Numbered from the stretch's first letter, positions 2,096 to 8,598 are shown. The stretch is DNA of 8,598 bases from a virus (IMGVR_UViG_2671180828_000009); one strand, 5' to 3'. Notes: generated from the letters alone by a model not told the origin. Program-made: numbers and translations.

Positions 2096-2996
2096 CCGTT
2101 CCTCCGTTGGTTACGCTCCACTGCGTACATGATGCCGCCTGTGTTTTGTTCAGGACCACATCCGCCAGAGGAGAAGCCAGCTCCACACGCTGCACACCCT
2201 CAACATGCAGGGCGGCAAAGATGGCGCTACGGCGAATATCCCGACCAAGACGCGTCTGACTGGCGATGTACTTCTGCAGGCTGGCTTTTGCCGCTGCCAT
2301 TACCGGCTCTGCTTCCGGTCCCGGATAGAGAAAAATGGTGGCTTCCACGCGATACGGGATGATTTCTGCGCTGCGAACCGTCAGACGGTCAGCCACCGGG
2401 CGGACGTTCTCACTGTTCAGAGCTTTTTCCACCACGTCCAGCAGGTCTTTTTCTGCAGTTCCATCGCCTTCGCGGCTAAGGACAGTCAGCACCACCTCTG
2501 CAGGTGCCGGGCTGGTTGCACTGGCATCCGCCACCCGACCGTCGGCGCTTCGGGCATGAAATTCATAAGCTGCAGTTGGCCCCGCAACTGAAAGCCCTTC
2601 AAAGGCTGCAGGCACACGCAGGCGTAACGATTCATCGCTTTCCATCACAGCTGCAACGGGCGGCACAGCGTCATTATCAGCAGGCGTCACCGTCAGGCGT
2701 TTCACGTTGTAGTTGGCAGCGATTTGGTCCAGATCGCCGCCCATCGCATAAGCCACCATCACCGCCTGCGCGGCTTCGTTAATGCGCTGGCGCAGAAGCA
2801 ACTCACGGTAAGCGTTCTCCTGCAACAATTTGGTGACGGGTTCAGATTCCAGTTCCAGCGTGCGGATCACTGCTTCCTGCTCATCTTTCGGATGAAGCGC
2901 CACAAATTCGGCCTTGCGTTCGGCAAGCAGCGTCTCAAAGTCCGGCACATCCACAATCTGCGGCGCAGGCAACTGCGAAAGGTCAATCACTGCCAT
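2088..2996 (-). CDS. J: Baseplate assembly protein J (P2 gpJ-like), about 302 aa
   Basis: The ORF track opens at 3035, but the likely start is the ATG at 2996 (MAVIDLSQLPAPQIV...), giving the expected gpJ length. Position between W and I. Overlaps the W 3' end by 14 nt and the I start by 8 nt. Confidence 0.85.
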   Translation of the reverse strand: MAVIDLSQLPAPQIVDVPDFETLLAERKAEFVALHPKDEQEAVIRTLELESEPVTKLLQENAYRELLLRQRINEAAQAVMVAYAMGGDLDQIAANYNVKRLTVTPADNDAVPPVAAVMESDESLRLRVPAAFEGLSVAGPTAAYEFHARSADGRVADASATSPAPAEVVLTVLSREGDGTAEKDLLDVVEKALNSENVRPVADRLTVRSAEIIPYRVEATIFLYPGPEAEPVMAAAKASLQKYIASQTRLGRDIRRSAIFAALHVEGVQRVELASPLADVVLNKTQAASCTQWSVTNGGTDE

Positions 2997-3342
2997 TCTC
3001 TGCTCCTGTTGATACGGAAAGGGAAACAGGCACACCGCTATTACGCCGCCCGGTCAGCTCCACCACCATTGAACCGTCAAAATTACTGTTGATGGTGATG
3101 GAATCCAGCGTCAGCCGTGGCTCCCAGCGACTCAGCGCCACATACACTGCCGACATGACCTGCAGGCGTAACGCCGGATTTTGTGGCTGGTCTATCAGTG
3201 CCGACAGCAGGGAACCATATTCCCGGCGAGCAATGCGGCTACCCTGCGGCGTCAGCAAAATGTCCCGCACCGACTGGCGCAGATGGTCAATATCAGTAAT
3301 GGCTTTACCGCTGATATTGTTCATCCCGCTATAAAGCGTCAT
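2983..3342 (-). CDS. W: Baseplate wedge protein W (gp25-like), 119 aa
   Basis: Size and sequence (MTLYSGMN..., ...REYGSLL..IDQPQNPALRLQ...WEPR...) are consistent with P2 gpW. Start ATG overlaps the upstream stop as ATGA. Confidence 0.85.
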   Translation of the reverse strand: MTLYSGMNNISGKAITDIDHLRQSVRDILLTPQGSRIARREYGSLLSALIDQPQNPALRLQVMSAVYVALSRWEPRLTLDSITINSNFDGSMVVELTGRRNSGVPVSLSVSTGAENGSD

Positions 3343-3938
3343 ACCGGGCCTCCGGTTGTATCGCCGCCTTTCAGGACGCCAGTATGCTGATGCGCATCAA
3401 CCACGATCCCGTTAGAACTCATAGCTCCGCCGCCCTGGGTAAGGCACCAGGCCATCTCCCGCGCACGGCGGTTATCCAGCCCCTGATTAAAAACACCTTT
3501 CACATAAACCCAGCGCGGCAACTGTCGGCACGCATCCGCCCAGCGCCGCTGATTGAGCAATTTCACCAGCGTGGAGCTGCAGGCATTGCCTGTCCCCACG
3601 TTGAAGGCAAATGACACCACCGCGTCATACACTTTCTGCGGCGGCTGTTGCTTCACACACCTTTCCAGCGCCCGCTCCACACGCAGCACGTTGGAGATCA
3701 GCCCTTCCGCTGCCTGTCGTTCCGTAATGGTTTTGCCTGGAATGACACCAGATGTATTACCAATGCCGTCTGTCCAGACACCCGCGCTGCACTGATACGG
3801 CTGCAGACGACAGCCTTCGTAATCGGCAATCAGTTTCAGCCCCTCCACGGAGGTGTGAAGCTGCTGAAAACCCGGCAGCGTGGCAGCAATAGCCAGCACG
3901 GCTCCGACAAGGCAGCGTTTAACGATTGATGGATTCAT
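3339..3938 (-). CDS. SAR endolysin, T4-lysozyme (GH24) family, P1 Lyz-like, with a ~30 aa C-terminal extension
   Basis: Weakly hydrophobic Gly/Ala-rich N-terminus MNPSIVKRCLVGAVLAIAATLPG followed by ...YEGCRLQPYQCSAGVWTDGIGNT..., which closely matches the recalled P1 Lyz catalytic region (EGCRRDPYMCPAGVWTDGIGNT). Start chosen at the in-frame ATG 3938 because GGGAGGA sits immediately upstream; the ORF track opens at 3965. Confidence 0.8.
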   Translation of the reverse strand: MNPSIVKRCLVGAVLAIAATLPGFQQLHTSVEGLKLIADYEGCRLQPYQCSAGVWTDGIGNTSGVIPGKTITERQAAEGLISNVLRVERALERCVKQQPPQKVYDAVVSFAFNVGTGNACSSTLVKLLNQRRWADACRQLPRWVYVKGVFNQGLDNRRAREMAWCLTQGGGAMSSNGIVVDAHQHTGVLKGGDTTGGPV

Positions 3939-4134
3939 AGTCCTCCCGCGAGATCTGCCCGTCACGCAGAAGCTGGTAGGCTTTGTGTTTGTAGTACCAG
4001 TTGATAGCCAGCATCAGCACACCAATCATCAGGCCGCCCAGCGTTGAGGCATCCTTGATGGACAAATCGCCCAGCCAGGCCAGCACGACGGCGATGCAAT
4101 ACGTGATAAAGGCGCTGATTCGCTCAAGCGTCAT
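3919..4134 (-). CDS. Class II holin (possible pinholin), 71 aa
   Basis: Two predicted transmembrane helices (ISAFITYCIAVVLAWLG and LGGLMIGVLMLAINWYY) followed by a charged C-terminal tail. Sits immediately upstream of, and overlapping, the SAR endolysin gene. Confidence 0.6.
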   Translation of the reverse strand: MTLERISAFITYCIAVVLAWLGDLSIKDASTLGGLMIGVLMLAINWYYKHKAYQLLRDGQISREDYESINR

Positions 4135-4137
4135 AAT

Positions 4138-4341
4138 TCAGTCCCATAGCTGGACGGTCTGCACGGTGGTGGTTGTCGGTATGTCCGGCAGCTCCACCTG
4201 CAACCCGTGAGGTAAAAAGGGGCCGTATTCGGCAAGCCCCGGATTTGCCTTCAGTACCTGCTCCGTGACACCCTGCGTGCGCCCGTAATGACGCCAGCAA
4301 AGCGCGTCCACCGTGTCATACTGATGCGCACGCACTTTCAT
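4138..4341 (-). CDS. X: Tail protein X (P2 gpX-like), 67 aa
   Basis: MKVRAHQYDTVDALCWRHYGRTQGVTEQVLKANPGLAEYGPFLPHGLQVELPD closely resembles recalled P2 gpX. Exact expected size and position after L. Confidence 0.85.
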   Translation of the reverse strand: MKVRAHQYDTVDALCWRHYGRTQGVTEQVLKANPGLAEYGPFLPHGLQVELPDIPTTTTVQTVQLWD

Positions 4342-4805
4342 CAGATAAGCTCCACTGTGCAGTGCGGCGCATCCTGTACCCGGCTGATGGCCCAGCGGGC
4401 GTCACGCCACAAATCACCGCTGGCTTCTGCCAGTTCCTCGCCTCGCTTCACACCCGATGCCGTGGCGTCATAGTCCTGGTATCGTTCGTTGAGCATGGCG
4501 CGTGCCCAACAATAAACCGCGTTGAAATAGTGCTGAATGCGCTCACTTTTGCCGTCCAGCTGTTCCGCCGGGACTTCTGCCAGCGACACATACCCCAGCA
4601 TCTGCTGACGTCTGCGAAACTCATACAGCTCTGCGTTGACCTCCGAAATTGCCGACAGAGCAACCTGCTTTAAACGCGGCTGCGTCACCGTGCCGTCAGT
4701 GCGCATGACACTGCGAAACTCCGACAGGTCCACATCAGGCCAGAACGGCGTATTTCTGATGATTTCCGCCTGTTCCGGTGCCTGTTCTGGCGCAACAAAC
4801 TTCAT
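4341..4805 (-). CDS. L: Head completion/stabilisation protein L (P2 gpL-like), about 154 aa
   Basis: Start assigned to ATG 4805 (MKFVAPEQ...) preceded by AGGAGA; the ORF track opens further upstream at 4868 inside a GC-rich hairpin. Position immediately before X. Confidence 0.8.
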   Translation of the reverse strand: MKFVAPEQAPEQAEIIRNTPFWPDVDLSEFRSVMRTDGTVTQPRLKQVALSAISEVNAELYEFRRRQQMLGYVSLAEVPAEQLDGKSERIQHYFNAVYCWARAMLNERYQDYDATASGVKRGEELAEASGDLWRDARWAISRVQDAPHCTVELI

Positions 4806-4818
4806 GCTGCTTTCTCCT

Positions 4819-4880
4819 GAAATAAAGGGCGGTGGACGGGGTTTTGATGTGGCAGTGCCTTTCGCCACCCCGTGCCGCCC
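4819..4880 (-). terminator. Candidate intrinsic terminator or structured element between the N remnant and L
   Basis: GC-rich imperfect stem (gggcgg..acgggg at 4828-4842 pairing with ccccgt.ccgccc at 4868-4880, ~25-nt loop) followed on the transcribed strand by CTTTATTTC just upstream of the L ribosome-binding site. Confidence 0.3.
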
Positions 4881-4900
4881 GTGCGCGGGGGCACGTTCTG

Positions 4901-5614
4901 TCAGCGGCTGTCATTGCGCAGTCTGCGCTCCAGCTGCTGTTTGTCTTTTTTCACGCCACAGCGGGGATCGAGCTGTAACGCATGGTTGAGATGATTAAGG
5001 GCAGACGCCGGATTCCCGACTTTCACTGCGCCCGGTGTGGTTTCACCGCCCGTGGTGGTGCTGCCCATGACGTGATCCGGTGCATCCTCACGGATTTTCT
5101 GCAGCCAGCCTTTGTTCACATCCTGCAGCAGCGGGTTTTCGCTACGGTTGGAGGTTTTCGCACGCTTCACGCCGTTAAAGCCGATCATGATGCGGTCCAG
5201 TGCCTGACGTTTCACGATGGCGTTACGGATACGCACCTGGAAATCCTGAAACTTCGCCCACAGGTCCAGCTTCGCGTAGGTCAGCACCGTGTCAAAGTTG
5301 GTCTGCTCGCATTTGTATTCCACATCGACCATCAGCGTCGGATCGACAGGCTCACGCTCTTTCGCGGTGGTGTCAGTGGTTCCGGCAATGGTGCTGCCAA
5401 CACCCAGCCCCAGCAACTGACCAGACTGCTCAGTCACTGGCGTGACGTTAATCAGCGTCAGGAATGCGGCGGACTGCTGGATCTGGTCTTCCAGCGTCTG
5501 CTGTACAGACGGCTCCACGGTGAACTTGCTGGACAGTTCTTCAACTGCCACACCGTTCAGACGCGCCAGCTGCTGCAGGTAAGCGTTAAAAGCAAAGCGG
5601 GTATTCTTCTTCAT
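4901..5614 (-). pseudogene. N: Major capsid protein N, 3'-truncated (237 codons versus about 350 expected)
   Basis: N-terminal ~205 aa (MKKNTRFAFNAYL...KFTVEPSV...LDLWAKFQDFQVRIRNAIVKRQALDRIMIGFNGVKRA...) look like a P2 N-family capsid protein. It follows O as expected, but the ORF is about 120 codons short, has a basic non-capsid-like tail (KKDKQQLERRLRNDSR), and no M gene lies between it and L. Confidence 0.7.
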
Positions 5615-5630
5615 CAGGTTTTGTGCTCCA

Positions 5631-6464
5631 TCAGCAATTGGTCAGAGTGTCAGCGGGGGCGTTACCGCCTGTTGCACGCTGGCGGTAGTCCTGGCGGCTG
5701 TCTTCATGGCTCAGCTTGTCCACCAGTTCGTTAAAGGCGGTCAGCTGTGCCTGCAGGGCTGTCTCCAGCTCAGACAGGCGTTCTTCCTGTTCAGACAGGG
5801 ATTTTTCGGTGCGCGCACTCAGGTTTTGCTGCTCAGTGGCGACCAGCTCCACGGCCTTATGCACATCAGAGAACCGGGCATCGTCGGACTGCTCTTTTTT
5901 GGTAAACAGCGCCGTGACACGGGCAAACAGGGACGGCTTGTCCTCCTGGATTTCTTCCAGTTCGATCACTGTTTCCTCTGCGGCGGTAAAGAGATTGGCG
6001 GGATTCTGCTTGCGGTTTGCCAGTGGGTTATGGGCTGCACTGGCGCTGAATGTCAGCATTTCAGTGCCCAGACTGGCAGGGTCATCAGTGGCAGCCAGGC
6101 CGACCAGGTAGGCTTTGCCCGTATCAGCGAACTTCGGGCTGACTTCCATAGAGGTGAATAATTTCTGGCCTTTTTTCACCAGTTCCACCAGGGACTCCGT
6201 TGGCTCAACGTCGGCATACAGCGCCATCTTGCCTGCCAGCGGACCTTCCGTGATTTCTTCAGCAAACAGCGCCGTCACCTTGCCGTAGCGGTTAAAGGTG
6301 CTGTCCGGCAGATAAGACTTGATGTGCTCAAGGTTAATCAGCGCGGTATACACCGCCGGGTTGTAGCTGGCTGCCATCTGTTCCAGCCATTCTCGCTGGA
6401 TTTCGCGTCCGTCGGTGGTGGCACCTTCCACCCCGATGCGAAAACGCTTTGCTTTCACTGTCAT
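5631..6464 (-). CDS. O: Capsid scaffolding protein O (P2 gpO-like), 277 aa
   Basis: ...FRIGVEG..DGR...INLEH...YG.V..L.AE...; ...AYLVGLAATDDPASLGTE... and C-terminal ...ATGG....D.LTNC match recalled gpO. GGAG 8 nt upstream of the ATG. Divergent from P. Confidence 0.85.
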   Translation of the reverse strand: MTVKAKRFRIGVEGATTDGREIQREWLEQMAASYNPAVYTALINLEHIKSYLPDSTFNRYGKVTALFAEEITEGPLAGKMALYADVEPTESLVELVKKGQKLFTSMEVSPKFADTGKAYLVGLAATDDPASLGTEMLTFSASAAHNPLANRKQNPANLFTAAEETVIELEEIQEDKPSLFARVTALFTKKEQSDDARFSDVHKAVELVATEQQNLSARTEKSLSEQEERLSELETALQAQLTAFNELVDKLSHEDSRQDYRQRATGGNAPADTLTNC

Positions 6465-6606: not shown

Positions 6607-7578
6607 ATGAACACCACACTGACACCCGCAGATCTCGATCCCCGTCGGCAGGCCATGCTGCTGTACTTTCAGGGATACCGCGTAGCCCGCATTGCTGAAA
6701 TGCTGGGCGAGAAAGTTGCAACCGTTCACAGCTGGAAAAAACGCGACAAGTGGGGTGACTATGGGCCGCTGGATCAGATGCAGCTCACCACCGCCGCACG
6801 CTACTGCCAGCTCATCATGAAGGAGCACAAAGAAGGGAAAGATTTCAAAGAGATTGACCTGCTGGCGCGCCAGTCTGAGCGCCACGCGCGGATCGGCAAG
6901 TTTAACAATGGCGGCAACGAATCCGACTTAAACCCTAACGTCGCCAACCGCAACAAAGGCCCACGCCGTCAGCCGGAAAAGAATGTTTTCACCGATGAGC
7001 AGATTGAGAAGCTGGAAGAAATCTTCCATTCCTCCATGTTCAACTACCAGCGCCACTGGTGGGAAGCCGGAAAAACCAACCGCATCCGCAACCTGCTGAA
7101 GTCACGCCAGATCGGCGCGACCTTTTACTTTGCCCGTGAAGCCCTGATTGACGCCCTGCTGACCGGACGTAACCAGATTTTCCTTTCCGCCAGCAAGGCA
7201 CAGGCCCACGTCTTTAAGCAGTACATCATCGACTTCGCCAAAGAAGTGGAGGTGGAGTTGAAAGGCGATCCGATGGTGCTTCCTAACGGGGCCACGCTTT
7301 ACTTCCTCGGCACCAATGCCCGCACTGCCCAGAGTTATCACGGCAACCTGTATCTGGATGAATATTTCTGGATACCGAAATTCCAGGAGCTGCGCAAAGT
7401 GGCTTCCGGTATGGCTATTCACAAGAAATGGCGACAAACCTATTTTTCCACGCCATCCAGCCTGACACACAGTGCTTATCCGTTCTGGTCCGGTGCGCTA
7501 TTCAACCGTGGGCGCAACAAAGCCGATACCGCACCTGCAGCAACACGCCCGATCTCTGCGGTTGCACTCATGACGTAA
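6607..7578 (+). pseudogene. P: Terminase large subunit P, truncated (323 codons versus about 590 expected)
   Basis: N-terminal region (...[17 protein letters not shown]...[10 protein letters not shown]..., ...[17 protein letters not shown]...) is consistent with the P2 gpP N-terminal and ATPase region. The frame ends in a non-terminase-like tail overlapping the convergent cII-like gene. No portal gene Q follows. Confidence 0.75.
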
Positions 7579-7868
7579 TGTGGCAGTTTCTCTTTTGCCA
7601 CCTCATTAATTGGTACGCATGGCAGGCAGTGAATCTGTGCCAGAAAACCATCTACCAACGTTGAATCTTCAGTCAGATCGGTAAGCAGCCAGATTTCTGG
7701 TGCGGTTAATAAATGAGGTTGAGCTGGGTTCAGCTTGTTCCGCAGAATCTGCACATTCATGCCCGCACGTTCTGCCAGTTGCACCAGATTGTGGCGCAGT
7801 GCGAATGCACGACAGGCTTCATCAAAATGTGGATGTTTGGAAACTTGGTAATCAAACATGGTTTTCAA
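7476..7868 (-). CDS. cII: Phage CII-like regulatory protein (186 CII / CP76 family), probably 3'-truncated
   Basis: [45 protein letters not shown]...[25 protein letters not shown] matches the recalled CP76/CII family N-terminal region. The real start may be M4 at 7859. 130 aa versus about 165-170 for family members. Confidence 0.65.
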
Positions 7869-7873
7869 CTCCG

Positions 7874-7915
7874 AACTTATCGCAAAATCGAACTCAGCGT
7901 CTTATTGCGAAAATA
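7874..7915. promoter_or_regulatory. Paired repeats in the apl-cII intergenic region
   Basis: CTTATCGCAAAAT (7875-7887) and CTTATTGCGAAAAT (7901-7914) form a direct repeat about 26 bp apart; they contain the inverted hexamers TCGCAA / TTGCGA. Confidence 0.25.
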
Positions 7916-7923
7916 GACGTCTA

Positions 7924-8127
7924 TTAAGCAGACAAAGCATCAACAGTCAGAGCAGCCAGGTTAATCATTACCTTTTCACGTTTTTTGTCTTTACGAAGAC
8001 GATGACGAGGTAGTCGGCCATCAGCCAACATGTCGTTAATCGTATCAATAGAAAGGCCAGTCAGTTCGCTATAACGTTCGATTGTGACATGTGGTGTATT
8101 CAGAGTAATTGAAATGTTAGGTGTCAT
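7924..8127 (-). CDS. Small helix-turn-helix DNA-binding protein, Apl/Cox-like excisionase-regulator, 67 aa
   Basis: ...[27 protein letters not shown]... is an excisionase-type HTH. First gene of the leftward operon, divergent from cI and upstream of cII, as apl is in 186. Confidence 0.5.
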
Positions 8128-8272
8128 AAGGCAACATTCCTTCTAGATATGGCTTGTGGCGAGCCGTTGTTTGTCGTGATTAGTAGTGAAGGCTCCAAAA
8201 GAACACTTCTGGTTCAACTTTAAGATCGCTTTTGGAATCTGTCAACGAATTTTGGATTTCTTTGGAGGACTT
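8128..8272. promoter_or_regulatory. Immunity switch region between the divergent apl-like and cI genes
   Basis: 145-bp intergenic region. Perfect 8-bp inverted repeat TCCAAAAG (8194-8201) / CTTTTGGA (8229-8236) with further TTTGGA copies at 8251 and 8261. GGAGG at 8264-8268 ahead of the cI GTG. No promoter hexamers could be placed confidently. Confidence 0.4.
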
Positions 8273-8598
8273 GTGGATTTCAATAGCGGCGGTAAGAAAG
8301 CCATAGAACGTTTAGTTGAAGCATATGGGTTCGGTACCCGTCAGGCTCTCTGTGATCATTTAGGTGTTTCTAAGAGCACCATGGCAACGCGCTATATGCG
8401 TGATATTTTTCCAGCAGATTGGGTAATCCAGTGCGCCCTTGAAACGGGCACCTCGCTTAATTGGCTAACAACAGGGCATGGTTCAAAGCAAGCATCAGCA
8501 AATACAAATACTATAGAAGTAGAAAAATATTTATTGTCTGATGGAGCATTGCAGAAAGACGGTTTTTATATTTTTGATAAGGGATTTCTACCCTCTAC
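8273..8598 (+). CDS. cI: CI-family repressor (186 CI-like N-terminal HTH domain), 5' part only
   Basis: Open frame from GTG 8273 to the window edge: VDFNSGGKKAIERLVEAYGFGTRQALCDHLGVSKSTMATRYMRDIFPADWVIQCALETGTSLNWLTTGHG..., matching the 186 CI-type HTH pattern. Not in the ORF track because it has a non-ATG start and no stop within the window. Confidence 0.7.
   Translation, partial: MDFNSGGKKAIERLVEAYGFGTRQALCDHLGVSKSTMATRYMRDIFPADWVIQCALETGTSLNWLTTGHGSKQASANTNTIEVEKYLLSDGALQKDGFYIFDKGFLPS

What the first reader, a model, noticed from the sequence alone, without database searches (positions are those of the whole stretch)
7476..8598. 186-type immunity module kept intact next to the deletions
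The cI/apl/cII switch survives while the replication and packaging genes are gone. A retained repressor could still give superinfection immunity against homoimmune phages, a plausible reason for the remnant to persist. The cII-like gene looks 3'-truncated, so establishment control may be lost while maintenance remains.
Basis: partly seen in the sequence, partly recalled or inferred. Interest (0 to 1): 0.45.

Follow-up and report, generated by a model that had tools for sequence, protein, structure and literature searches.

The report
Repressor switch in a decayed prophage
This is the lysogeny control region (repressor, small excision/regulator gene, cut-off activator gene) of a recently decayed P2/186-like prophage of E. 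coli. It is an ordinary, already annotated kind of remnant that probably still makes a working repressor, with no sign that it is kept by selection.

Summary
Window 7476-8598 holds a 186-architecture switch. It has a two-domain CI repressor gene (+ strand, from 8273). Divergent from it are a 67-aa Cox/Apl-like gene (7924-8127) and a CII gene cut after residue 112 of 169 and fused to antisense terminase DNA. The junction is a 4-bp microhomology, GATA, at 7525-7528. The lost piece is about 10.3 kb in an intact relative. It carries the terminase 3' half, portal, cargo genes, replication gene A, dam, fil and the cII 3' end.

The window is a whole draft contig, so cI stops at an assembly break. A 56.9-kb contig identical to the window over all 8598 bases carries the complete 189-aa cI, then int, next to rcdA.

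"186-type" holds for the architecture and CII (73% identity), but not for immunity specificity (CI 33% identical to 186 CI).

By analogy with 186, where CII1-135 is inactive, the truncated CII is predicted dead. Maintenance does not need CII, so immunity is probably kept.

The switch is 100% identical to that of an intact prophage, and the exact junction is in none of 5,426 complete E. coli genomes. Recent decay explains retention, and selection is not shown.

The parts
6607..7528 (+). Truncated terminase ATPase gene (P2 gpP homologue). It keeps 307 native codons of 588. The ORF then reads 16 alien codons to a stop at 7578.
   Evidence: Pfam Terminase_5 plus Terminase_6N. blastn homology to the intact P gene of L004 ends at window 7528.
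7525..7528 (.). Deletion junction: the 4-bp microhomology GATA shared by the P and cII parental sequences.
   Evidence: Three-way alignment of the window with intact P (L004) and intact cII (L002).
7476..7859 (-). Truncated cII (cII'). It encodes 127 aa: residues 1-112 are native (of 169) and 15 are alien ([15 protein letters not shown]). It is predicted inactive.
   Evidence: 73% identity to 186 CII. Residues 1-112 are identical to the strain 1283 CII. Phage_CP76 profile positions 1-111 of 146. 186 CII1-135 is inactive and CII145 is active (PMC7708051).
7833..7859 (.). CII binding site of the establishment promoter pE: ATGTTTG-N13-CAAACAT, starting at the cII ATG.
   Evidence: Same half-sites, same spacing and same position as the annotated 186 CII site 23435-23462. 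It occurs once in the window.
7912..7925 (.). Perfect 14-bp palindrome AATAGACGTCTATT overlapping the stop codon of the apl-like gene. It is a candidate flanking CI operator by position only.
   Evidence: It sits where 186 FR (23404-23420) sits relative to the apl stop. No second copy was found in the element, so the assignment is unproven.
7924..8127 (-). 67-aa helix-turn-helix protein in the apl/cox position, first gene of the pR operon. It is a remote Cox/Apl-family member.
   Evidence: hhalign of the family profile A1 against 186 Apl gives probability 90.6% (E 1.3e-6), and against P2 Cox 93.8% (E 1.7e-7). Eight of 35 family members match Pfam Phage_Cox and 15 match HTH_17. The protein alone is sub-threshold. 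It is identical to the one in the intact prophage.
8109..8137 (+). Candidate pL, the maintenance promoter for cI: TTGAAA, 17 bp, CAACAT. It is weak, with 8 of 12 consensus matches.
   Evidence: Relaxed consensus scan. The -10 lies 5-10 bp beyond the apl ATG, exactly as the annotated 186 pL does. Position-based inference only.
8217..8245 (-). Candidate pR, the early lytic promoter: TTGACA, 17 bp, TAAAGT, with 10 of 12 matches. It faces pL, and the predicted start sites are about 65 bp apart.
   Evidence: Promoter scan. The TTGACA is conserved in related heteroimmune phages. The 186 pR lies in the same position next to the cI start.
8191..8279 (.). Cluster of five TCCA(A/C)AA(G)-type repeats over and around pR. 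Four are direct, spaced 11, 11 and 21 bp apart, and one is inverted. They are candidate CI operators.
   Evidence: Five of the ten copies in the 11-kb element fall within these 90 bp. The block is replaced together with cI in Klebsiella and E. coli phages that keep the same apl-like gene. Binding has not been tested.
8273..8598 (+). cI repressor gene, first 108 codons: the N-terminal HTH domain and the start of the linker and C-terminal domain. It is cut by the end of the contig, not by mutation.
   Evidence: PF07022. L005, L009 and L010 are 100% identical to the window and continue through cI, to 189 aa in L005 and L010.

Best explanation
The region is the lysis-lysogeny switch of a young, decaying P2/186-like prophage of E. 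coli, integrated between ybjL and rcdA.

One illegitimate recombination at a 4-bp microhomology removed about 10 kb. The lost piece runs from terminase gene codon 307 to cII codon 112. It takes out the portal gene, cargo genes, the replication genes, fil and the last third of cII.

What remains is a complete maintenance circuit.
- cI encodes a two-domain, 186-family repressor.
- cI is transcribed from a weak pL that faces a strong pR.
- pR drives a Cox/Apl-like gene and the dead cII'.

Inferred mechanism, by analogy with 186: CI binds repeats over pR and shuts it off. That relieves interference on pL and so sustains its own synthesis. CI would equally repress pR on incoming phages with the same operators, giving superinfection immunity.

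CII' is shorter than the inactive 186 CII1-135. It should not activate pE, but pE is needed only for establishment.

The switch is retained because the deletion is recent. cI also had to be functional for as long as lethal lytic genes were present. No selection for immunity needs to be invoked.
For: Shown directly:
- Gene content and order.
- The junction and its microhomology.
- Size and content of the deletion against the intact strain 1283 prophage.
- cI is complete in a 56.9-kb contig that is 100% identical to the window. Its CI and Int are identical to those of the intact prophage.
- CI matches 186 CI structures 2FJR and 2FKD.
- The CII site is identical in form and position to the 186 site.
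- pR and pL candidates lie at the 186 positions.
- The switch is 100% identical to the intact prophage over 7525-8598.
- The exact junction is in 0 of 5,426 complete genomes, while 118 carry this cI with its operator region.

From the literature:
- 186 CII1-135 is inactive and CII145 is active. cII- lysogens have normal CI levels (PMC7708051).
- CI represses pR and activates pL by relieving interference (PMC3675496, and the NC_001317 annotation).
Against: - No expression or binding data exist for this CI. Its operators are only guessed from repeats.
- pL is a weak consensus match (8 of 12).
- The activity limits of CII come from a 73%-identical protein, not this one.
- The window's own assembly stops inside cI. 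Completeness of cI is shown only in identical elements from other samples.
- E. coli LR-64-2 has lost still more structural DNA yet keeps cI, the apl-like gene and int perfectly. That is also what selection on the switch would produce.
Confidence: 0.78

Rival explanations
1. The switch is kept by positive selection because CI protects the host from homoimmune P2/186-like phages. On this reading it is a domesticated immunity gene.
For: - 118 of 5,426 complete E. coli genomes carry prophages with this cI and operator region, so homoimmune phages circulate.
- LR-64-2, a more decayed relative, has three or more extra deletions in structural genes. Its cI, apl-like gene, orf63 and int remain intact.
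Against: - The switch is 100% identical to that of an intact prophage. There are no substitutions on which selection could be tested.
- The remnant is rare. There are 17 contigs, all 100% identical, and the exact junction is in no complete genome.
- Only two related remnants are known.
- Immunity against about 2% of strains' prophages is a narrow benefit.
Confidence: 0.15
2. cI is kept because losing it is harmful or removes the element. This would be survivorship, not host benefit.

Derepression of pR would express the Cox/Apl-like excision factor alongside an intact int. A non-replicating element would then excise and be lost.

If the ogr/B-type late activator is under CI control as in 186, derepression would also switch on the remaining holin and near-complete endolysin.
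For: - int (350 aa) and the apl-like gene are intact.
- The holin is intact. The endolysin keeps all but about 6 codons.
- ogr is intact in L001.
- In 186, CI represses pB, and B activates the late promoters (annotation of NC_001317).
Against: - No convincing CI-operator-like motif lies upstream of ogr. Three 10-mers shared with the pR region were found where about 1.3 are expected by chance.
- P2-type late transcription may also need replication, which is deleted here (own knowledge).
- The excision activity of the 67-aa protein is untested.
Confidence: 0.2
3. The switch is already silent or non-functional. The CI gene would then be a neutral leftover that gives no immunity.
For: - pL is only an 8-of-12 consensus match.
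- No expression data exist.
- pE, the strong CII-dependent route to CI synthesis, is disabled by the cII truncation.
Against: - The DNA from the junction to the end of int is identical to an intact, widespread prophage type. That prophage must maintain lysogeny from the same pL.
- 186 cII- lysogens keep normal CI levels.
Confidence: 0.1

Closest known systems
Coliphage 186 (Eganvirus ev186) lysis-lysogeny switch: CI / Apl / CII with pR, pL and pE
   Same: - Same gene order and orientation.
- Two-domain CI (PF07022 plus PF16452; matches 2FJR and 2FKD).
- CII 73% identical to 186 CII.
- Identical CII half-sites ATGTTTG/CAAACAT, 20 bp centre to centre, at the cII ATG.
- pR beside the cI start.
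- pL -10 lies 5-10 bp beyond the apl ATG.
- Promoters face each other about 62-65 bp apart.
   Different: - CI is only 33% identical to 186 CI, and there is no DNA similarity to 186 across cI and pR. Operators and immunity specificity therefore differ.
- The Apl-slot protein is 67 aa against 87 aa and is only remotely related.
- cII is cut at residue 112.
- fil, dhr, A and any tum-like gene are deleted.
- The structural genes are P2-like (about 97% to E. coli P2-like prophages such as those of VE-F10 and CFT073; 65-69% to 186).
Intact P2-like prophage at ybjL/rcdA in E. coli strain 1283 (NZ_CP023371.1) and about 118 other complete genomes
   Same: 100% DNA identity over window 7525-8598. CI, the 67-aa protein and Int are identical, and the integration site is the same.
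   Different: That prophage has full-length cII (169 aa), fil, replication gene A, dam, portal, complete terminase and all head, tail and lysis genes.
E. coli LR-64-2 remnant (NZ_AP027595.1)
   Same: Same site and 99.9-100% identity. cI, the 67-aa gene, orf63 and int are intact. The cII breakpoint is the same.
   Different: It is further decayed. An extra 117 bp is lost at the junction between CCGGTA and CCGATA. The baseplate J gene is fused to the scaffold O gene, so window 2321-6123 is absent. The tail tube and D genes are truncated.
P2 switch (C repressor / Cox, Pe and Pc)
   Same: Convergent early and lysogenic promoters. A Cox-type small HTH protein is the first early gene. The structural genes are P2-like.
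   Different: P2 has a 99-aa single-domain C repressor and no CII or pE. This element has the 186-type repressor and CII.
Retron Ec67-carrying P2/186-like prophage
   Same: The 67-aa protein is 97% identical to UniProt 'Protein ORFa in retron Ec67'.
   Different: No retron is present in the window. The relationship was seen only through this one protein.

Membership tests
186-type (Eganvirus-type) CI/Apl/CII switch | Two-domain CI repressor (N-terminal HTH plus C-terminal oligomerisation domain) transcribed divergently from the early lytic operon | tested here: met
   PF07022 (E 2.5e-31) and PF16452 (E 3.4e-29) on the 189-aa CI. PDB 2FJR at E 1.5e-31 and the 14-mer CTD 2FKD at E 1.1e-14. Only the first 108 codons lie in the window. 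The rest comes from contigs 100% identical to it.
186-type (Eganvirus-type) CI/Apl/CII switch | CII activator (Phage_CP76 family) as the second gene of the pR operon | tested here: met
   PF06892 at E 2.9e-38 and 73% identity to 186 CII. The gene is present but truncated at residue 112 of 169.
186-type (Eganvirus-type) CI/Apl/CII switch | CII operator: inverted 7-bp half-sites ATGTTTG two helical turns apart at the start of cII (pE) | tested here: met
   ATGTTTG at 7833 and CAAACAT at 7853. It aligns with the 186 site 23435-23462.
186-type (Eganvirus-type) CI/Apl/CII switch | Apl/Cox-type small HTH protein (excisionase and repressor) as the first gene of the pR operon | tested here: inconclusive
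   Position and size fit. Profile comparison gives 90.6% probability to Apl and 93.8% to Cox. Pfam Phage_Cox is sub-threshold for this protein (14.6 bits against 27.5), but 8 of 35 relatives match it. Binding sites and excision activity were not tested.
186-type (Eganvirus-type) CI/Apl/CII switch | Face-to-face pR and pL with start sites about 62 bp apart | tested here: inconclusive
   Consensus matches lie at the expected positions: pR 10 of 12 and pL 8 of 12, about 65 bp apart. The number of promoter-like hits in the region equals that in shuffled sequence, so position is the only argument.
186-type (Eganvirus-type) CI/Apl/CII switch | Three CI operators at pR spaced two turns apart, plus distal FL and FR sites about 300 bp away | tested here: inconclusive
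   A repeat cluster at 8191-8279 has 11- and 21-bp spacing. A 14-bp palindrome lies at the FR-equivalent position. The two share no motif, and no FL candidate was found.
Homoimmune with phage 186 itself | Same repressor specificity and operators as 186 | tested here: not met
   CI is 32.6% identical to 186 CI. blastn finds no similarity to 186 across window 7861-8598. The 186 operator sequences (ATTCAC-N5-GTGAAT) are absent. The closest CI in any isolated phage is 58% identical.
P2-type switch (C/Cox without CII) | Small single-domain C repressor of about 99 aa and no CII/pE | tested here: not met
   The repressor is 189 aa with two domains, and a CII gene with its site is present.
Domesticated prophage remnant kept by selection for immunity | Long persistence or purifying selection on cI relative to the neighbouring genes | tested here: inconclusive
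   There are no substitutions relative to the intact prophage, so no test is possible. The exact junction is in 0 of 5,426 complete genomes. All 17 contigs are clonal. One further-decayed relative keeps the switch.

The most novel reading that the evidence does not exclude
The retained cI, apl-like gene and int are under selection in this lineage as a host-serving immunity cassette. On this reading, stepwise loss of structural genes (window type, then LR-64-2 type) with a perfectly kept switch records prophage domestication in progress. The switch belongs to an immunity type not represented by any isolated phage.
Probability: 0.12. Interest if true: 0.35.

Novelty: new member of a known kind. 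Interest (0 to 1): 0.15.

Why it matters
It matters little beyond annotation. Three points are of some use.
- A 186-architecture switch is combined with P2-like structural genes, under an immunity specificity with no cultured phage representative (closest CI 58% identical).
- The deletion chain is cleanly resolvable and could serve as a small case study of prophage decay.
- If immunity were demonstrated, it would add one more example of the well-known repressor-mediated protection by defective prophages.

Tried and rejected
1. **Operator discovery.** Repeat and inverted-repeat searches over the switch gave only the TCCAAAAG-type cluster at pR, with no matching FL or FR sites.
   - The 14-bp palindrome at the apl stop has no second copy.
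   - 10-mers shared between pR and the ogr upstream region are at chance level: 3 seen, about 1.3 expected.
2. **Apl/Cox-type sites at the int-proximal att arm.** The arm shares no 8-mer with the pR-pL region. An ACTTATYG motif recurs in the att arm and in the apl-cII spacer, but without helical phasing. I left it unexplained.
3. **PDB sequence search with the 67-aa protein.** It hit only a designed repeat protein (8VD6). I treat that as a generic helix-turn-helix resemblance, not homology.
4. **Rfam.** No RNA family was found in the window.
5. **Look-up with the TTG-start 130-aa cII ORF.** It found nothing. The ATG-start 127-aa product is the one on record.
6. **The primary paper on CII truncations** (Murchland 2014, J Biol Chem) is not held. 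The CII135 and CII145 facts are taken from its authors' 2020 paper.
7. **Structure prediction** was not run. It would not change the verdict.

Full report
**What the window is**

The 8598-base window is one complete contig of a draft assembly (CDQN01000172.1 of GCA_000938575.1), seen in reverse. It is a P2-like prophage remnant.

On the - strand it carries, in order:
- tail fibre H, then I, J and W;
- a fused endolysin, the holin, X and L;
- a truncated capsid gene N and the scaffold gene O.

On the + strand comes a truncated terminase ATPase gene P. The region of the finding follows it.

Longer contigs with the same element, and the complete genome of E. coli LR-64-2, place the element between ybjL and rcdA in E. 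coli.

**Check of the observation**

Three genes occupy 7476-8598.

*cI.* It starts at GTG 8273 on the + strand and reaches the window end after 108 codons.

*The 67-aa gene.* It lies at 7924-8127 on the - strand.

*cII.* The ORF lies at 7476-7859 on the - strand and encodes 127 aa.
- It matches Pfam Phage_CP76 over profile positions 1-111 of 146 (E 2.9e-38).
- It is 73% identical to 186 CII.
- It is identical over residues 1-112 to the 169-aa CII of an intact prophage in E. coli strain 1283.
- After residue 112 come 15 unrelated residues.

*The junction.* I aligned the window to an intact terminase gene (L004) and to the intact cII (L002).
- Terminase-derived DNA ends at 7528.
- cII-derived DNA begins at 7525.
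- The two parents share the 4 bases GATA.
- This is the signature of an illegitimate, microhomology-mediated deletion.

*What the deletion removed.* In the strain 1283 prophage the lost interval is about 10.3 kb. It holds:
- the 3' half of P and the portal gene;
- three or four cargo genes;
- the replication endonuclease gene and a dam methylase gene;
- TraR-like, DUF2732 and DUF5347 genes;
- fil and the last third of cII.

Two more internal deletions lie further left in the window.
- One removes V, S, R, the spanin genes and a lysA-like gene.
- The other removes most of the small terminase gene M and the 3' part of N.

**Is cI complete?**

The window cannot say, but identical elements can.
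- A 56.9-kb Logan contig (L005) matches the window at 100% over all 8598 bases.
- It continues through a 189-aa CI, a 63-aa YdcA-like ORF and a 350-aa integrase, up to rcdA.
- Its CI and Int are identical to those of the intact strain 1283 prophage.
- Two other contigs (L009, L010) also read through at 100% identity.
- Three draft contigs from two assemblies stop at exactly the same base in cI. I read this as an assembly-graph break, not a biological lesion. This last step is inference.

The full CI has the Phage_CI_repr HTH domain and the Phage_CI_C domain. It aligns end to end with the crystal structure of 186 CI (2FJR, E 1.5e-31). It also matches the C-terminal domain that forms the 14-mer wheel (2FKD, E 1.1e-14).

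**How '186-type' it is**

The architecture matches 186 closely. I used the annotated 186 genome as the ruler.

- *CII site.* ATGTTTG-N13-CAAACAT starts at the cII ATG in both elements.
- *pR.* A strong promoter match (TTGACA, 17 bp, TAAAGT; 8245-8217, - strand) lies 28 bp from the cI start.
- *pL.* A weak promoter match (TTGAAA, 17 bp, CAACAT; 8109-8137, + strand) has its -10 lying 5-10 bp beyond the ATG of the first lytic gene, exactly as in 186.
- *Spacing.* The predicted start sites face each other about 65 bp apart, against 62 bp in 186 (own knowledge for the 186 figure).

The specificity is different.
- CI is only 32.6% identical to 186 CI.
- There is no detectable DNA similarity to 186 from the cII start to the window end.
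- The closest CI in any isolated phage is 58% identical.

The element is therefore heteroimmune to 186.

The 67-aa protein is not recognisably Apl by pairwise comparison or by Pfam thresholds. A profile of 35 diverse relatives does link it to the family.
- It aligns to 186 Apl with 90.6% probability and to P2 Cox with 93.8%.
- Eight of the 35 relatives match Pfam Phage_Cox.

I take it to be a short, remote Cox/Apl-family protein. Its dual role as excisionase and repressor is inferred from position only.

**Candidate operators**

Five TCCA(A/C)AA(G)-type repeats crowd into 8191-8279, over pR. Only five other copies occur in the remaining 11 kb of the element. Four of the five are direct repeats, spaced 11, 11 and 21 bp apart.

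Klebsiella and E. coli phages that keep the same apl-like gene at about 87% DNA identity diverge abruptly from window position about 8179. They carry different cI genes. So this repeat block travels with cI, and I propose it as the CI operator set.

A perfect 14-bp palindrome (7912-7925) sits where 186 has its FR operator. It has no second copy.

None of this is proven.

**How it most likely works**

*Shown:* the maintenance half of the circuit is physically whole and identical to that of a complete prophage type. That half comprises cI, the pR-pL region, the apl-like gene and int.

*Inferred from 186:*
- CI occupies pR. That blocks the lytic operon and relieves transcriptional interference on pL, so cI keeps itself on (annotation).
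- The same CI would repress pR on an incoming phage with matching operators.

*CII'.* It keeps 112 of 169 residues.
- In 186, the natural breakdown product CII1-135 is inactive.
- CII1-145 is active and stabilised (PMC7708051).
- A 112-residue version of a 73%-identical protein should therefore be dead.
- 186 cII- lysogens hold normal CI levels, so the loss should not affect maintenance.

**Why the switch is still there**

- The stretch 7525-8598 is 100% identical to the intact prophage.
- All 17 contigs that carry the junction protein are mutually identical wherever compared.
- No complete E. coli genome among 5,426 has the exact junction.

The remnant is thus young and confined to one lineage. 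With no substitutions, selection on cI cannot be measured.

A prophage also cannot lose cI before its lethal genes are lost. A freshly crippled prophage with cI intact is therefore the expected state.

Two observations keep the adaptive reading open.
- 118 of 5,426 genomes carry this cI with its operator region, so homoimmune phages exist.
- E. coli LR-64-2 holds a further-decayed copy that keeps cI, the apl-like gene, orf63 and int perfectly. It has an extra 117-bp loss at the junction between CCGGTA and CCGATA and a J-to-O fusion.

A third possibility is survivorship. Loss of CI would express the excision factor beside an intact int, so a non-replicating element would be lost. It might also turn on the surviving holin and near-complete endolysin through the late activator. 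I found no CI-type motif at the ogr promoter to support that last step.

**Comparison with what is known, and verdict**

- This is a heteroimmune member of the 186-type switch family, sitting in a P2-like prophage that is decaying.
- The proteins are already annotated in RefSeq as 'phage repressor protein CI' and 'phage regulatory CII family protein'.
- Nothing here departs from known biology.
- The adaptive explanation is possible but unsupported.
- Interest is low.

Noticed in passing
window 3445-3449 and 5013-5027: Two further internal deletions relative to an intact relative (L004).
- A 2.3-kb loss removes most of V, then S, R, lysC, lysB, a lysA-like gene and the last 19 nt of the lysozyme gene. 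It has a 5-bp overlap at the junction.
- A loss of about 1 kb fuses capsid gene N (about 200 codons kept) to the 3' end of the small terminase gene M. It has a 15-bp overlap.
   Followed up: partly
L001 (E. coli LR-64-2) 8524-9812, against window 2321-6123 and 7412-7528: LR-64-2 carries a more decayed copy of the same element.
- The baseplate J gene is fused to the scaffold O gene.
- An extra 117 bp is lost exactly at the P'/cII' junction, between the imperfect repeats CCGGTA and CCGATA.
- The tail tube and D genes are truncated.
- cI, the 67-aa gene, orf63 and int are untouched.

It looks like a later step of the same decay series.
   Followed up: partly
window 3339-4134 (- strand): The holin gene (3919-4134, 71 aa) is intact. 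The endolysin ORF keeps all but about 6 codons and is fused to the tail of the V gene. The spanin genes are gone. These could still harm the cell if the late genes were switched on.
   Followed up: no
window end 8598; L006, L011 and L012: Three draft contigs from two assemblies end at exactly the same base inside cI. Two of them are from the same assembly as the window, so the assembly holds redundant contigs. Other assemblies read straight through. This suggests a repeat or graph branch at that point.
   Followed up: partly
window about 8179: A sharp mosaic boundary lies inside the cI-apl intergenic region. Klebsiella phage 4LV2017 and Escherichia phage vB_EcoM-813R9 share cII, the apl-like gene and about 50 bp of spacer at about 87% identity. 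They then switch to unrelated pR-operator and cI sequence. The Klebsiella CI is a 313-aa protein with a duplicated N-terminal domain.
   Followed up: partly
window 7924-8127: The 67-aa protein is 97% identical to UniProt 'Protein ORFa in retron Ec67'. This links the switch type to the retron-Ec67-carrying P2/186-like prophage. Most close relatives are 73 aa long. This variant ends 6 residues earlier, and it does so in the intact prophage too.
   Followed up: no
L001 12598-12675 and window 7872-7910: An ACTTATYG motif occurs three times in the arm between int and rcdA: twice as AACTTATTGTTTT 19 bp apart, and once as AACTTATC. It occurs twice in the apl-cII spacer. These could be protein binding sites (IHF or an excision factor) or chance.
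   Followed up: no
L005 18269-19300 and 8811-9002 (outside the window): The remnant keeps two likely cargo genes. One is an Acyl_transf_3 acyltransferase between the tail-fibre assembly and sheath genes. The other is a 63-aa signal-peptide, cysteine-rich YdcA-like ORF between cI and int. Either could give the host a reason to keep the element that has nothing to do with immunity.
   Followed up: no
window 6607-7578 and 7476-7859: Each truncated gene reads into the other's antisense DNA. As a result the P' and cII' ORFs overlap by 103 bp on opposite strands. This is an artefact of the deletion, not a designed overlap.
   Followed up: yes
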